Shown: one piece after another, positions 2,577-14,650 of the stretch | How positions within the stretch are numbered: the stretch's first letter is position 1 | Layout: each line of letters opens with the position of its first letter | The notes under the pieces: model-generated | Told to the model about the DNA's origin: nothing | The model's input: the letters and a program-made list of their open reading frames with translations, nothing else | Database searches by the model: none | Program-made: the position numbers and the translations under genes | Assembly (NCBI RefSeq): GCF_054482525.1 | Contig: NZ_CM137006.1 | Length of the DNA: 64,000 nucleotides | Strand: one strand, 5' to 3'

Positions 2577-3335
2577 ATGAGCCTGACCCTCACACTTACT
2601 GGCACTGGCGGCGCACAGGGCGTTCCGGCATGGGGCTGCGAGTGCGTGGCCTGCGCCAGAGCGCGGCGCTCACCGCAGTATCGCCGCCAGCCATGCAGCG
2701 GCGTCGTGAAGTTTAACGACGCGATCACCCTGATCGACGCCGGGCTGCACGATCTCGCCGATCGCTGGTCGCCCGGATCGTTCCAGCAGTTTTTGCTGAC
2801 GCACTACCATATGGATCACGTGCAGGGGCTGTTTCCGCTGCGCTGGGGTGTGGGCGATTCGATCCCGATCTACGGCCCGCCGGATGAACAGGGCTGCGAC
2901 GATCTGTTTAAACATCCGGGCCTGCTTGATTTCAGCCACACGATGGAACCGTTTGTGGTGTTTGATTTACAGGGGTTACAGGTCACGCCCCTGCCGCTCA
3001 ACCACTCAAAACTGACCTTCGGTTATCTGCTGGAAACGGCACACAGCCGGGTGGCGTGGCTGTCTGACACCGCTGGCTTGCCGGAAAAAACGCTGAAATT
3101 TTTACGCAATAATCAGCCGCAGGTAATGGTGATTGATTGCAGCCACCCGCCGCGCGAGGATGCACCGCGTAATCACTGTGATTTAAATACCGTGCTTGCG
3201 CTGAATCAGGTTATCCGCTCGCCACGGGTGATTCTGACCCATATCAGCCACCAGTTTGATGCGTGGCTGATGGAAAACGCACTGCCGTCGGGGTTTGAGG
3301 CGGGGTTTGATGGGATGGAGATTGGGGTGGCGTGA
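2577..3335 (+). CDS. phnP: PhnP, metallo-beta-lactamase-fold phosphodiesterase
   Basis: 252-aa ORF with HxHxDH-type motif (THYHMDH); last gene of phn operon. Confidence 0.9.
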
Positions 3336-3350
3336 TGGGAGGGAATGTGC

Positions 3351-3477
3351 GCGCTGGCCCCCTCACCCTAACCCTCTCCCCAGAGGGGCGAGGGGACCGA
3401 TTGTGCTCGATATTGAATATTGCGCTGGTTTTCTCCCTCGCCCCATTGGGGAGAGGGCCGGGGTGAGGGGCGATGCC
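3351..3477. repeat. Pair of GC-rich boxC-like imperfect palindromic repeats in inverted orientation
   Basis: CCCCTCACCCTAACCCTCTCCCCAGAGGGGCGAGGGGA and its near reverse complement TCCCTCGCCCCATTGGGGAGAGGGCCGGGGTGAGGGG, separated by about 35 bp, in the phnP-yjdP intergenic region. Confidence 0.5.
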
Positions 3478-3493
3478 TGCTCCATACCCAACA

Positions 3494-3823
3494 TCAACGC
3501 CCATACTCATCTTCCATTCTCCGCTCTTCATCTTCTAGCTGCCGACGCTCCTGATCCAGCTGGCGCTGGCGATCGTCCAGCTGCCTGCGGCGATCTTCAA
3601 ACTGGCGGCGGCGATCGTCATATTGTCTGCGCCGATCGTCGTTCACTTCACGCTGCCAGCCGTCGTCGCGCGAATCTTCATAGTCTCGCCCACGGTCAGG
3701 GTTATAAGCGTCGTTAATCGCCTGCTGAATATTGCCAATGGTGTCGTCGATAATATCGGCCTGGGCCGGAACGGTGGACAGCGTGAGCAGGGTGAATAAA
3801 AGAAATAGCGGAAAGCGTTTCAT
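3494..3823 (-). CDS. yjdP: YjdP, small secreted protein with charged RRRQ/DD repeats
   Basis: 109-aa ORF with N-terminal signal peptide (MKRFPLFLLFTLLTLSTVPAQA) and repeated DRRRQ-type motifs. Confidence 0.8.
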   Translation of the reverse strand: MKRFPLFLLFTLLTLSTVPAQADIIDDTIGNIQQAINDAYNPDRGRDYEDSRDDGWQREVNDDRRRQYDDRRRQFEDRRRQLDDRQRQLDQERRQLEDEERRMEDEYGR

Positions 3824-3891
3824 TAGCCAACCTCAAAAAGAAACTCTATCCACATTAGTCATTACTCATCCATGCAAGTAGTGGATGAATC

Positions 3892-4092
3892 TCAATTTCT
3901 CCGCTGCTCTATTGCCGTAATCGCCTCCACGCGTTGTTGATGACGACCGCCTTCGTACTGCGCGCCCAGCCACGCATCCACAATCATTTTTGCCAGTTCG
4001 AGGCCAACCACTCGTGAACCAAAAGCCAGTGCAACTTCACTGGCGTAATGCGGATAATCAGTACGCTCTGACGACCTGGTTTCTTTATCAAT
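3892..4092 (-). pseudogene. rpiB: rpiB remnant (ribose-5-phosphate isomerase B), 3' portion only, with internal deletion
   Basis: Translation contains SSERTDYPHYAS...FGSRVVGLELAKMIVDAWLGAQYEGGRHQQRVEAITAIEQRRN, matching the RpiB C-terminus as recalled; the catalytic-Cys GTG-loop segment and the N-terminus are absent; upstream part of the ORF is not RpiB-like. Confidence 0.6.
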
Positions 4093-4241
4093 CCCCTCAC
4101 TCATTGACCATGAATAAAAGGCTGGCACAGCAACGCAGAATCCTGCGGTGCCAGCGACATGACCGCCCATTGCTCCGGTACGTTTTTTAATAAAAAACAC
4201 CGGTTGCATTGATTAATTGTGCTCAGGGTAATGACTCCAAC

Positions 4242-4745
4242 TTATTGATAGTGTTTTATGTTCAGATAATGCCCGATGACTTTGTCATGCAGCTCCACCG
4301 ATTTTGAGAACGACAGCGACTTCCGTCCCAGCCGTGCCAGGTGCTGCCTCAGATTCAGGTTATGCCGCTCAATTCGCTGCGTATATCGCTTGCTGATTAC
4401 GTGCAGCTTTCCCTTCAGGCGGGATTCATACAGCGGCCAGCCATCCGTCATCCATATCACCACGTCAAAGGGTGACAGCAGGCTCATAAGACGCCCCAGC
4501 GTCGCCATAGTGCGTTCACCGAATACGTGCGCAACAACCGTCTTCCGGAGACTGTCATACGCGTAAAACAGCCAGCGCTGGCGCGATTTAGCCCCGACAT
4601 AGCCCCACTGTTCGTCCATTTCCGCGCAGACGATGACGTCACTGCCCGGCTGTATGCGCGAGGTTACCGACTGCGGCCTGAGTTTTTTAAGTGACGTAAA
4701 ATCGTGTTGAGGCCAACGCCCATAATGCGGGCAGTTGCCCGGCAT
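4242..4745 (-). CDS. insB: IS1 InsB (transposase catalytic part, normally expressed as InsAB' by -1 frameshift)
   Basis: 167-aa ORF overlapping insA 3' end in the -1 frame; canonical IS1 organisation. Confidence 0.9.
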
Positions 4746-4939
4746 CCAACGCCATTCATGGCCATATCAATGATTTTCTGGTGCGTACCGGGTTGAGAAG
4801 CGGTGTAAGTGAACTGCAGTTGCCATGTTTTACGGCAGTGAGAGCAGAGATAGCGCTGATGTCCGGCGGTGCTTTTGCCGTTACGCACCACCCCGTCAGT
4901 AGCTGAACAGGAGGGACAGCTGATAGAAACAGAAGCCAC
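4664..4939 (-). CDS. insA: IS1 InsA
   Basis: 91-aa [46 protein letters not shown], zinc-finger plus HTH, canonical IS1 InsA. Confidence 0.92.
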
Positions 4940-5226
4940 TGGAGCACCTCAAAAACACCATCATACACTAAATCAGTAAGTTGGCAGCATCACCTGTGCT
5001 CAGTATTTGCCGAAGTACAATATATATAATAAATATATAAAACACCTCATATTATTTACAGAGATAATAAATTCGCGTACTTTTCCCTCTTCAGCACAAA
5101 TGCCTAATAAAGTGGCGCGTTCAGCTCACACTTCTACTTATTAAAGTCGCAATTTCCCAATTATGATAACGCCAGCTTTAAATGACGTATTTTGCATGGA
5201 TTACATATTTACGACATAAATGATAA

Positions 5227-7224
5227 ATGGAGATTTATATGAATAACTCTCGGTTATTCCGTTTGAGCAGGATTGTTATTGCGTTAACTGCCGCCAGCGG
5301 CATGATGGTAAATACCGCTTACGCAACAGATGAAGCGAAAGCCGCCACTCAATATACCCAACAGATTAATCAGAATTACGCCAAATCATTACCTTTTAGC
5401 GATCGTCAAGATTTTGACGATGCCCAGCGTGGATTTATCGCTCCGCTGCTGGATGAAGGTATTCTGCGTGATGCTAACGGCAAAGTTTACTACCGCGCAG
5501 ACGATTACAAATTTGATATTAATGCCGCTGCGCCGGAAACCGTAAACCCCAGCCTGTGGCGTCAGTCGCAAATCAACGGTATTTCTGGCCTGTTCAAAGT
5601 CACCGATAAAATGTATCAGGTGCGCGGCCAGGATATCTCTAACATTACGTTCGTTGAGGGCGAGAAAGGCATTATTGTTATCGACCCGCTGGTGACGCCG
5701 CCTGCCGCAAAAGCCGCACTTGATCTTTACTTCCAGCATCGTCCGCAAAAACCGATTGTTGCTGTGATTTACACCCACAGCCACGCCGACCATTATGGCG
5801 GTGTGAAAGGCATTATCTCTGAAGCGGATGTTAAATCCGGCAAAGTGCAGGTGATCGCTCCGGCAGGCTTTATGGACGAAGCCATCAGCGAAAACGTGCT
5901 GGCGGGTAACATCATGAGCCGCCGTGCGCTCTACTCTTACGGTCTGTTACTGCCGCACAACGCGCAAGGCAACGTGGGCAACGGCCTGGGCGTGACGCTG
6001 GCAACCGGCGACCCGAGCATTATTGCACCGACTAAAACTATCGTCAGAACTGGCGAGAAGATGATTATCGACGGCCTGGAGTTTGACTTCCTGATGACTC
6101 CGGGTAGCGAAGCGCCAGCCGAAATGCACTTCTATATTCCGGCCCTGAAAGCCCTGTGTACCGCCGAGAACGCCACGCATACCCTGCACAACTTCTACAC
6201 TCTGCGCGGCGCGAAAACCCGCGATACCAGCAAGTGGACCGAGTACCTGAACGAAACGCTGGATATGTGGGGTAACGACGCGGAAGTACTGTTTATGCCG
6301 CACACCTGGCCGGTCTGGGGCAATAAGCATATCAATGATTATATTGGTAAATATCGCGATACTATCAAGTACATTCACGACCAGACCCTGCACCTGGCGA
6401 ACCAGGGCTACACCATGAATGAAATCGGCGACATGATTAAGCTGCCGCCTGCGCTTGCCAATAACTGGGCCAGCCGCGGCTATTACGGTTCTGTCAGCCA
6501 CAACGCCCGCGCGGTGTATAACTTCTATCTTGGCTATTACGACGGTAACCCGGCTAACCTGCATCCATATGGTCAGGTGGAGATGGGTAAACGTTACGTG
6601 CAAGCTCTGGGCGGTTCTGCCCGCGTCATCAACCTGGCGAAAGAAGCGAACAAGCAAGGTGATTATCGCTGGTCGGCAGAACTGCTGAAACAGGTGATTG
6701 CCGCCAACCCTGGTGACCAGGTCGCGAAGAATCTGCAAGCGAATAACTTTGAACAGCTGGGCTATCAGGCCGAGTCCGCCACCTGGCGCGGTTTCTACCT
6801 GACCGGCGCGAAAGAGCTGCGCGAAGGGGTGCATAAATTCAGCCACGGCACCACCGGTTCCCCGGACACCATTCGCGGAATGTCGGTCGAAATGCTGTTC
6901 GACTTTATGTCCGTTCGCCTCGATAGTGCGAAAGCCGCGGGTAAAAATATCAGCCTGAACTTCAATATGAGCAACGGCGATAACCTCAACCTGACGCTGA
7001 ACGATAGCGTGCTTAACTACCGTAAAACGCTGCAACCTGAAGCCAACGCCTCTTTCTACATCAGCCGTGAAGATCTTCACGCCGTGCTGACCGGACAAGC
7101 CAAAATGGCGGATCTGGTAAAAGCGAAGAAAGCCAAAATTATTGGCAATGGCGCGAAACTGGAAGAAATTATTGCCTGTCTGGATAATTTCGATTTGTGG
7201 GTGAATATCGTAACCCCAAATTAA
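5227..7224 (+). CDS. yjcS: YjcS, MBL-fold alkyl/aryl-sulfatase family protein (BDS1/SdsA1-like), secreted
   Basis: 665-aa ORF with signal peptide and metallo-beta-lactamase motif [10 protein letters not shown]; start may be a few codons downstream. Confidence 0.85.
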
Positions 7225-12502: not shown

Positions 12503-14650
12503 ATGAAAAAAGTCGTCACGGTTTGCCCCTATTGCGCATCAGGTTGCAAAATCAACCTGGTCGTCGATAACGGCAAAATCGTCCGGGCGGAGGCAGCGCA
12601 GGGGAAAACCAACCAGGGTACCCTGTGTCTGAAGGGTTATTATGGCTGGGATTTCATTAACGATACCCAGATCCTGACCCCGCGCCTGAAAACCCCCATG
12701 ATCCGTCGCCAGCGTGGCGGCAAACTCGAACCTGTTTCCTGGGATGAGGCACTGAATTACGTTGCCGAGCGCCTGAGCGCCATCAAAGAGAAGTACGGTC
12801 CGGATGCCATCCAGACGACCGGCTCCTCGCGTGGTACGGGTAACGAAACCAACTATGTAATGCAAAAATTTGCGCGCGCCGTTATTGGTACCAATAACGT
12901 TGACTGCTGCGCTCGTGTCTGACACGGCCCATCGGTTGCAGGTCTGCACCAATCGGTCGGTAATGGCGCAATGAGCAATGCTATTAACGAAATTGATAAT
13001 ACCGATTTAGTGTTCGTTTTCGGGTACAACCCGGCGGATTCCCACCCAATCGTGGCGAACCACGTAATTAACGCTAAACGTAACGGGGCGAAAATTATCG
13101 TCTGCGATCCGCGCAAAATTGAAACCGCGCGCATTGCTGACATGCACATTGCACTGAAAAACGGCTCGAACATCGCGCTGTTGAATGCGATGGGCCATGT
13201 CATTATTGAAGAAAATCTGTACGACAAAGCATTCGTCGCTTCCCGTACAGAAGGCTTTGAAGAGTATCGTAAAATCGTTGAAGGCTACACGCCGGAGTCG
13301 GTTGAAGATATCACCGGCGTCAGCGCCAATGAGATTCGTCAGGCGGCACGGATGTATGCCCAGGCGAAAAGCGCCGCCATCCTGTGGGGCATGGGTGTAA
13401 CCCAGTTCTACCAGGGCGTGGAAACCGTGCGTTCTCTGACCAGCCTCGCGATGCTGACCGGTAACCTCGGTAAGCCACATGCGGGTGTTAACCCGGTTCG
13501 TGGTCAGAACAACGTACAGGGTGCCTGCGATATGGGCGCGCTGCCGGATACGTATCCGGGATACCAGTACGTGAAAGATCCGGCTAACCGCGAGAAATTC
13601 GCCAAAGCCTGGGGCGTGGAAAGCCTGCCTGCTCATACCGGTTATCGCATCAGCGAGCTGCCGCACCGCGCAGCGCATGGTGAAGTGCGTGCCGCGTACA
13701 TTATGGGCGAAGATCCGCTGCAAACTGACGCGGAGCTGTCGGCAGTACGTAAAGCCTTTGAAGATCTGGAACTGGTTATCGTTCAGGACATCTTTATGAC
13801 CAAAACCGCGTCGGCGGCGGATGTTATTTTACCGTCAACGTCGTGGGGCGAGCATGAAGGCGTGTTTACTGCGGCTGACCGTGGCTTCCAGCGTTTCTTC
13901 AAAGCGGTTGAACCGAAGTGGGATCTGAAAACGGACTGGCAGATTATCAGTGAAATCGCCACTCGTATGGGTTATCCGATGCACTACAACAACACCCAGG
14001 AGATCTGGGATGAGTTGCGTCATCTGTGCCCGGATTTCTACGGTGCGACTTACGAGAAAATGGGCGAACTGGGCTTCATTCAGTGGCCTTGCCGCGATAC
14101 TTCAGATGCCGATCAGGGGACTTCTTATCTGTTTAAAGAGAAGTTTGATACCCCGAACGGTCTGGCGCAGTTCTTCACCTGCGACTGGGTAGCGCCAATC
14201 GACAAACTCACCGACGAGTACCCGATGGTACTGTCAACGGTGCGTGAAGTTGGTCACTACTCTTGCCGTTCGATGACCGGTAACTGTGCGGCACTGGCGG
14301 CGCTGGCTGATGAACCTGGCTACGCACAAATCAATACCGAAGACGCCAAACGTCTGGGTATTGAAGATGAGGCATTGGTTTGGGTGCACTCGCGTAAAGG
14401 CAAAATTATCACCCGTGCGCAGGTCAGCGATCGTCCGAACAAAGGGGCGATTTATATGACCTACCAGTGGTGGATTGGTGCCTGTAACGAGCTGGTTACC
14501 GAAAACTTAAGCCCGATTACGAAAACGCCGGAATACAAATACTGCGCCGTGCGCGTCGAGCCGATCGCCGATCAGCGCGCCGCCGAGCAGTACGTGATTG
14601 ACGAGTACAACAAGTTGAAAACTCGCCTGCGCGAAGCGGCACTGGCGTAA
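12503..14650 (+). CDS. fdhF: Formate dehydrogenase H, selenocysteine-containing (in-frame UGA at 12920-12922 is recoded)
   Basis: Two adjacent same-frame ORFs (12503-12922 and 12971-14650) joined by TGA; N-terminal MKKVVTVCPYCASGCKINL; Mo-bisPGD dehydrogenase; SECIS hairpin immediately 3' of the TGA. Confidence 0.92.
12920..12965 (+). promoter_or_regulatory. SECIS element (selenocysteine insertion sequence) of fdhF
   Basis: UGA followed directly by hairpin CACGGCCCATCGGTTGCAGGTCTGCACCAATCGGTCGG. Confidence 0.85.

What the first reader, a model, noticed from the sequence alone, without database searches (positions are those of the whole stretch)
4227..4994. Intact IS1 with TSD TGTGCTCAG about 230 bp upstream of the yjcS start codon
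Both terminal inverted repeats and both ORFs (insA, insB) are intact and flanked by identical 9-bp repeats, consistent with a recent and still mobile copy. It sits in the promoter-proximal region of yjcS (alkyl-sulfatase family) and could alter yjcS expression by promoter disruption or read-out transcription.
Basis: seen in the sequence. Interest (0 to 1): 0.3.

Follow-up and report, generated by a model that had tools for sequence, protein, structure and literature searches.

The report
Ordinary recent IS1 insertion upstream of yjcS
This is a complete, standard copy of the common E. coli jumping gene IS1 that landed very recently in the gap between a dead rpiB fragment and the yjcS sulfatase gene; it is real but ordinary, and there is no sign that it drives yjcS.

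Summary
Window 4227-4994 is a 768-bp IS1 with both 23-nt terminal repeats, insA, the insB frame, the A6C frameshift site and an open 232-aa InsAB' fusion. Identical 9-bp repeats TGTGCTCAG flank it. It differs from K-12 IS1A at one silent base and is 100% identical to copies in many E. coli genomes. Three near-identical genomes carry the empty site with a single TGTGCTCAG. One of them, 19KM1776, differs from the window by 9 SNPs and no indels over 63 kb. No insertion at this site was found in 5,426 complete E. coli genomes, so it is recent and strain-specific.

- The element lies on the minus strand, so transposase transcription runs away from yjcS, towards a 105-aa rpiB remnant whose ATG is 17 bp from the IS1 end.
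- The IS1 lies 244 bp upstream of the yjcS ATG. That is just outside the ~225 bp of upstream sequence shared with K-12.
- The only possible outward hybrid promoter, TTGGCA-17-TATTTG, is weak.
- Eight independent IS1 insertions sit upstream of yjcS in other genomes, in both orientations and mostly beside one AT-rich tract. This fits IS1 target preference rather than selection.

Low interest; already known kind.

The parts
4227..4994 (-). Complete IS1 element (IS1A type), 768 bp
   Evidence: 100% identical over 768 bp to copies annotated 'IS1-like element IS1A family transposase' in many genomes. One difference from MG1655 IS1A, at window 4733.
4972..4994 (-). IRL, left terminal inverted repeat, on the yjcS side. 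It contains the inward transposase promoter (CTGCCA-16-TATGAT, 4987 to 4960, minus strand) and an outward-facing TTGGCA at 4981-4986 on the plus strand.
   Evidence: Exact match to GGTGATGCTGCCAACTTACTGAT. Promoter-like site found by the consensus scan. The outward -35 is inferred from the sequence and from PMC8764528 citing Prentki 1986.
4227..4249 (-). IRR, right terminal inverted repeat, on the rpiB-remnant side
   Evidence: Exact match to GGTAATGACTCCAACTTATTGAT. Pairs with IRL as a 23-nt inverted repeat, 78% complementary.
4664..4939 (-). insA (91 aa; repressor and N-terminal part of the transposase)
   Evidence: Translation. Pfam PF03811 at 1.3e-21 and PF12759 at 4.7e-31.
4242..4745 (-). 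insB reading frame (DDE catalytic part), expressed only as the InsAB' fusion
   Evidence: Translation. Pfam PF03400 at 5.9e-78. Fusion of 232 aa is open.
4682..4688 (-). A6C programmed -1 frameshift motif (AAAAAAC on the minus strand)
   Evidence: Located by script. Role of the motif as described in PMC12428005.
4218..4226 (.). Target-site duplication, left copy, TGTGCTCAG
   Evidence: Present once at the empty site in PCN033 and 19KM1776.
4995..5003 (.). Target-site duplication, right copy, TGTGCTCAG
   Evidence: Reference bases 5992-6000 of the sibling align to both window copies.
3892..4209 (-). 105-aa rpiB remnant ORF (flanking gene). Its ATG is 17 bp from the IRR end of IS1.
   Evidence: BLASTP against K-12 RpiB shows residues 54-106 missing. 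Pfam LacAB_rpiB matches the C-terminal part only. Annotated as an RpiB/LacA/LacB family protein in siblings.
5239..7224 (+). yjcS (alkyl sulfatase, 661 aa), intact flanking gene. Its start lies 244 bp from the IRL end.
   Evidence: ORF list. Sibling annotation gives the same length of 1986 nt. Distances computed.

Best explanation
A transposition-competent IS1A-type element inserted very recently into the 253-bp divergent spacer between a degenerate rpiB remnant and yjcS. The host is an E. coli lineage that lacks the als operon. The insertion was an ordinary IS1 event that duplicated the 9-bp target TGTGCTCAG, at the edge of an AT-rich tract of the kind IS1 prefers. The element faces away from yjcS and leaves the conserved yjcS upstream region untouched. 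The most likely consequence is therefore little or no change in yjcS expression. The main biological significance is that a mobile, deletion-prone element now sits next to yjcS-ytcA-mdtNOP. Shown: identity, intactness, duplication, empty site, recency, orientation and distances. Inferred: mobility, neutrality for yjcS, and target preference as the reason for the location.
For: Anatomy is complete and canonical. There is one silent difference from MG1655 IS1A. PMC12428005 reports that the IS1A/IS1E sequence type accounts for more than 99.9% of IS1 transposition in K-12 and that IS1 makes 8- or 9-bp duplications. The 80-nt reconstructed empty junction is an exact match in 19KM1776 and PCN033. 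The window and 19KM1776 differ by 9 SNPs and 0 indels over 63,232 aligned bases, apart from IS1 plus one copy of the duplication. Only one of 5,426 genomes spans 80% or more of the query in either orientation, and in each case the IS1 is at a different site. K-12 homology upstream of yjcS ends about 225 bp from the ATG, and the IS1 lies outside it at -244. The IRL promoter is on the minus strand. Other genomes carry independent IS1 insertions upstream of yjcS. In the window's orientation they lie at -200, -228, -273 and -69; in the opposite orientation at -199, -230 and -352. Local AT content is 80-95% just right of the site and 85% just left of it.
Against: No expression data exist for this strain. 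The yjcS promoter is not mapped, and neither scan found a good sigma-70 or sigma-54 match between the IS1 and the ATG. A regulatory site further upstream could therefore have been displaced. IS1 insertions upstream of genes have been shown to raise, lower or not change transcription depending on geometry (PMC8764528). The donor copy and actual mobility in this strain are unknown.
Confidence: 0.72

Rival explanations
1. The insertion activates yjcS. This could happen through a hybrid promoter made of the outward -35-like TTGGCA in IRL (4981-4986) and the flanking TATTTG (5004-5009, 17-bp spacer). It could also happen by separating yjcS from upstream AT-rich silencing DNA, as IS1 and IS5 do at the bgl operon.
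For: IS1 carries an outward -35 in its inverted repeat and can create hybrid promoters when a -10 lies at the right distance (PMC8764528 citing Prentki 1986). The geometry here is exactly 17 bp to a TAT-starting hexamer. The region is very AT-rich. IS1 insertions recur in this spacer.
Against: TATTTG matches only 3 of 6 positions and lacks the conserved final T. The pair scores 8 of 12, the same as about ten background matches in the same 280 bp, and fails the tool's criteria. The recurrent insertions occur in both orientations and at varied distances, so no orientation-specific benefit is visible. A crude expectation from genome-wide IS1 density (about 11 copies per 5 Mb) is about 4 occurrences in such a spacer against 8 seen, which is not a strong excess. 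The AT-rich tract stays on the yjcS side of the insertion, so it is not separated from the gene.
Confidence: 0.12
2. The insertion lowers yjcS expression by moving an upstream activator site or an upstream promoter 777 bp away.
For: The yjcS upstream spacer was reported to bind RpoN holoenzyme and NtrC in K-12 (PMC8743547), and enhancer-type activators act from upstream sites. An IS1 upstream of osmB lowered its transcript about 4-fold.
Against: The sequence left of the insertion is not shared with K-12. It is the rpiB-remnant junction of the als-less lineage, so no conserved yjcS regulatory site is expected there. The best sigma-54-like motif in K-12 lies in the alsK 3' end at -342, which this lineage lacks with or without IS1.
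Confidence: 0.12
3. The functionally relevant target is the rpiB remnant and yjdP, not yjcS. IS1 cuts the remnant off from its upstream DNA 17 bp before its ATG, and read-through from the transposase promoter now enters it in the sense direction.
For: Orientation and distances are shown directly. IRR carries an outward TTGGAG followed after 17 bp by ATTAAT (read).
Against: The remnant lacks RpiB residues 54-106 and is unlikely to be a working isomerase, so altered expression would probably be inconsequential. The IS1 promoter is weak and repressed by InsA (PMC12428005). yjdP has its own 68-bp spacer downstream of the remnant.
Confidence: 0.04

Closest known systems
IS1A / IS1E of E. coli K-12 (IS1 family; the 'consensus' active IS1 of PMC12428005)
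   Same: Length 768 bp. Identical IRL and IRR. Same insA, insB frame, A6C frameshift site and 232-aa InsAB'. 767 of 768 bases identical to MG1655 IS1A, and 100% identical to IS1A-family copies in many other genomes. 9-bp target duplication.
   Different: One base (window 4733; IS1 position 262, T instead of A). It is synonymous in insA (Thr69) and lies in the untranslated part of the insB frame. The chromosomal location was not found in 5,426 complete genomes.
Independent IS1 insertions upstream of yjcS in other E. coli (EF5-18-41, AMSCJX03, F5, PSS-12, fM51a, 64EVA, PF9285)
   Same: Same intergenic region. Six of the eight, counting the window, lie between -199 and -245 next to the tract GTACAATATATATAATAAATATATAAAA. 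Duplications are 8 or 9 bp.
   Different: Different exact positions, different duplications, both orientations and different IS1 variants (2 to 40 mismatches to the window copy).
IS1 hybrid-promoter activation (afaA in ST131, PMC8764528; Prentki et al. 1986)
   Same: The IS1 end facing the downstream gene carries an outward -35-like hexamer, and the spacing to a TAT-starting hexamer is 17 bp.
   Different: The -10 candidate here is poor (TATTTG), and the junction is 244 bp from the start codon. No expression evidence.
IS1/IS5 activation of the silent bgl operon
   Same: Insertion into an AT-rich region upstream of a gene.
   Different: No evidence that yjcS is silenced or that the insertions are selected. 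The AT tract remains adjacent to yjcS after insertion.

Membership tests
IS1 family insertion sequence (IS1A type) | Length about 768 bp, bounded by imperfect 23-bp terminal inverted repeats with the canonical sequences | tested here: met
   768 bp. IRL and IRR match the canonical 23-mers with 0 mismatches, and the arms are 78% complementary.
IS1 family insertion sequence (IS1A type) | insA encoding the zinc-ribbon plus helix-turn-helix protein | tested here: met
   Pfam PF03811 (76.4 bits) and PF12759 (106.6 bits), both far above their cut-offs.
IS1 family insertion sequence (IS1A type) | insB frame encoding the IS1 DDE catalytic domain | tested here: met
   Pfam PF03400 at 260 bits, covering profile positions 1-131 of 131.
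IS1 family insertion sequence (IS1A type) | A6C slippery motif in the insA/insB overlap that gives InsAB' by a -1 frameshift | tested here: met
   AAAAAAC at IS1 positions 307-313 (window 4688-4682). The simulated -1 shift gives an open 232-aa protein, the length stated in PMC12428005.
IS1 family insertion sequence (IS1A type) | 8- or 9-bp direct duplication of the target, single copy at the empty site | tested here: met
   TGTGCTCAG on both sides. Single copy in PCN033 and 19KM1776.
IS1 family insertion sequence (IS1A type) | Near identity to the reference IS1A sequence | tested here: met
   767 of 768 bases identical to MG1655 IS1A.
IS1 family insertion sequence (IS1A type) | Actual transposition activity | not testable with these tools
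   Inferred only from the intact sequence, the strain-specific insertion and the reported activity of the same sequence type.
IS-generated hybrid promoter driving the adjacent gene | Outward -35 in the IS end, 16-18 bp from a good -10 hexamer in the flank | tested here: not met
   TTGGCA-17-TATTTG. The -10 has 3 of 6 matches and no final T, was not reported by the promoter scan, and equals background in a loose scan.
IS-generated hybrid promoter driving the adjacent gene | Raised transcript level of the downstream gene | not testable with these tools
   Needs RT-qPCR or a reporter.

The most novel reading that the evidence does not exclude
The AT-rich tract 200-245 bp upstream of yjcS is a genuine recurrent IS1 landing pad, with eight independent insertions found in 5,426 genomes. 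In this reading, insertions there are retained because they change expression of yjcS, and possibly of the downstream ytcA-mdtNOP efflux genes, for example by relieving nucleoid-protein silencing as at bgl. The window copy would then be one instance of an adaptive regulatory switch.
Probability: 0.06. Interest if true: 0.45.

Novelty: already known. Interest (0 to 1): 0.08.

Why it matters
It matters little. It is a textbook IS1 insertion. Its practical uses are as a strain-specific marker that separates this isolate from near-identical relatives (19KM1776, PCN033, SCU-102), and as a flag that the yjcS-ytcA-mdtNOP side is now exposed to IS1-mediated adjacent deletion. That outcome is actually seen in MS 115-1 and MLI023K1/K2. 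If the insertion did alter yjcS, it would add one more example of IS1-driven regulatory change.

Tried and rejected
- **Orientation bias.** The first search listed only same-orientation IS1 insertions near yjcS. That was an artefact, because the tool joins only same-strand pieces. Repeating the search with the IS1 flipped gave a similar number in the other orientation, so the idea was rejected.
- **Sigma-54 promoter between IS1 and yjcS.** No GG-N10-GC core was found on the plus strand there. The best K-12 motif lies in alsK, which this lineage lacks.
- **Sigma-70 promoter for yjcS.** The strict scan found none in either the occupied or the empty site. A loose scan gave only 8-of-12 matches of equal weight, so the native promoter could not be located.
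- **IHF consensus (WATCARNNNNTTR) near the target.** No match was found.
- **Literature linking yjcS and IS1.** No paper holds both terms.
- **Other IS1 copies in the window.** None were found.
- **Scans of genome, metagenome or viral contigs for the exact junction.** Not run, because the answer would not change the verdict.

Full report
**Observation**

Window 4227-4994 is a 768-bp element. It begins with GGTAATGACTCCAACTTATTGAT and ends with ATCAGTAAGTTGGCAGCATCACC. These are the canonical IRR, and the reverse complement of the canonical IRL, of IS1. Each is matched with 0 mismatches and occurs once in the 64 kb, against 0 expected in shuffles. The repeat finder pairs them as 23-nt inverted arms.

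TGTGCTCAG occurs exactly twice in the window, at 4218-4226 and 4995-5003, directly abutting the element.

The coding content lies on the minus strand:
- insA (4664-4939) hits the Pfam InsA zinc-ribbon and HTH domains.
- The insB frame (4242-4745) hits the full IS1 DDE domain.
- The A6C slippery motif is at 4688-4682, and a simulated -1 shift yields an open 232-aa InsAB'. That is the length given for the IS1 transposase in PMC12428005.

The one detail not stated is that the element is on the minus strand.

**Which IS1**

The copy is identical to MG1655 IS1A at 767 of 768 positions. The single difference is at window 4733. It is the third base of insA codon Thr69, and it lies in the part of the insB frame upstream of the frameshift, so it changes neither InsA nor InsAB'. 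It is 100% identical over its full length to copies annotated as IS1A family in many complete E. coli genomes. PMC12428005 reports that this sequence type (IS1A/IS1E) accounts for more than 99.9% of IS1 transposition in K-12, and that IS1 makes 8- or 9-bp duplications. There is no other IS1 in the window.

**Empty site and age**

Megablast of 3700-5500 against 5,426 complete E. coli genomes found several with both flanks 100% identical and contiguous, spanning 1,024 bp instead of 1,801. Alignment with PCN033 shows a single TGTGCTCAG followed directly by TATTTGCCG. After removing 4227-5003 from the window, the 80-nt junction is an exact match in 19KM1776 and PCN033.

The whole window aligns to 19KM1776 in two blocks with 9 mismatches and no gaps over 63,232 bases. 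The 9 reference bases 5992-6000 are used by both blocks, which is the duplication.

No insertion at this site turned up in the collection. The single genome spanning 80% or more of the query in each orientation (EF5-18-41 and fM51a) has its IS1 44-46 bp further right, with a different duplication. The insertion is therefore recent and strain-specific.

**Context**

The window reads phnL-phnP (+), yjdP (-), a 105-aa ORF annotated as 'RpiB/LacA/LacB family' (3892-4209, -), IS1, yjcS (+, start 5239), ytcA, mdtNOP, fdhF and onward.

Compared with K-12, the whole alsRBACEK operon is absent. The rpiB ORF is a remnant that lacks RpiB residues 54-106. This configuration is common, found in 1,568 of 5,426 genomes.

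The IS1 therefore sits in a 253-bp divergent spacer. It is 17 bp from the ATG of the remnant and 244 bp from the yjcS ATG, or 232 bp from an upstream in-frame ATG at 5227.

**Does it affect yjcS?** Four points bear on this.

- **Orientation.** IRL faces yjcS. The transposase promoter, found by the scan as CTGCCA-16-TATGAT at 4987 to 4960 on the minus strand, reads away from yjcS. Read-out from it would enter the rpiB remnant.
- **Conservation.** Alignment of the spacer with K-12 shows near identity from the yjcS ATG back to about -225 and unrelated sequence beyond. The IS1 at -244 lies just outside the conserved block, so a conserved promoter or operator is unlikely to have been split.
- **Hybrid promoter.** IS1 ends carry an outward -35 and can form hybrid promoters (PMC8764528 citing Prentki 1986). 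Here TTGGCA (4981-4986) is followed after 17 bp by TATTTG (5004-5009). That hexamer lacks the conserved last T. It is not called by the scan and scores the same 8 of 12 as many background sites.
- **Sigma-54 and NtrC.** In K-12 the yjcS-alsK spacer was reported to bind RpoN holoenzyme and NtrC in vitro (PMC8743547). The best sigma-54-like motif I find there (TGGCGCTCAGGGTGCA) lies in the alsK 3' end at -342. This lineage lacks that sequence whether or not IS1 is present.

My best estimate is that the insertion is close to neutral for yjcS. This is inference. PMC8764528 shows that IS1 upstream of genes can raise (afaA), lower (osmB) or leave unchanged (ugd) transcription.

**Recurrence**

The two searches, with the IS1 in either orientation, list all genomes with an IS1 joined to one of the flanks. 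Independent insertions upstream of yjcS, by distance from the ATG:

| Genome | Position | Orientation relative to window | Duplication |
|---|---|---|---|
| EF5-18-41 | -200 | same | AAAACACCT |
| AMSCJX03 | -228 | same | CAGGTACA |
| F5 | -273 | same | AGTAAAAC |
| PSS-12 | -69 | same | CGCCAGCTT |
| fM51a | -199 | opposite | AAACACCTC |
| 64EVA | -230 | opposite | GACAGGTAC |
| PF9285 | -352 | opposite | CTGACTTTA |

Counting the window, six of eight lie between -199 and -245, beside a tract that is 80-95% A+T. Both orientations occur. A crude expectation from genome-wide IS1 density is about 4 occurrences in a spacer of this size, so the excess is modest. This fits the known preference of IS1 for AT-rich DNA (established knowledge, not tested here) rather than selection.

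Several further genomes have IS1 inside yjcS (LR-50, EC130, BY63/BY68, 184/2aE, ES9). Others have IS1 with the neighbouring DNA missing. MS 115-1 has lost yjcS-ytcA. MLI023K1/K2 have lost the stretch from rpiB to mdtO. This illustrates the deletion risk that such a copy brings.

**Verdict**

The suggestion of an effect on yjcS is possible but not favoured by orientation, position or promoter geometry. Nothing here departs from known IS1 biology.

Noticed in passing
window 3892-4209 (-): The gene next to IS1 is not alsK as in K-12 but a 105-aa rpiB remnant lacking RpiB residues 54-106. The whole alsRBACEK operon is absent. The same configuration is found in 1,568 of 5,426 complete E. coli genomes.
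   Followed up: partly
L004 (K-12) alsK 3' end, 342 bp upstream of the yjcS ATG; no counterpart in the window: The best sigma-54-like motif near K-12 yjcS (TGGCGCTCAGGGTGCA, with a GG-N10-GC core) lies in sequence that als-less lineages lack. If this is the RpoN/NtrC site reported in PMC8743547, about 29% of E. coli would lack that control of yjcS.
   Followed up: no
L018 (MS 115-1) 3574-4341; L019 (MLI023K2) about 3076-3843: IS1 copies in the same neighbourhood are associated with loss of adjacent DNA. yjcS-ytcA are missing in MS 115-1, and the rpiB 5' end through part of mdtO is missing in MLI023K1/K2.
   Followed up: partly
L015 (ES9) 375-1355 and 1898-2665: One genome has an IS5 between alsK and yjcS as well as an IS1 inside yjcS, so this spacer also takes other insertion sequences.
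   Followed up: no
window 12915-12969 (+) and 33266-33406 (+): Rfam finds the fdhF selenocysteine insertion element (SECIS_2, 87 bits) and the sRNA sraL (153 bits). Both are expected at these loci.
   Followed up: no
window 59024-60604 (-): A 526-aa ORF between ubiC and malM is annotated in the sibling genome as 'SopA family protein'. I do not recall a gene at this position in K-12, and this was not checked here.
   Followed up: no
window 4733: This is the only base that distinguishes the copy from MG1655 IS1A (A instead of T on the plus strand). It could serve to trace the donor copy, since many genomes hold copies 100% identical to the window copy.
   Followed up: partly
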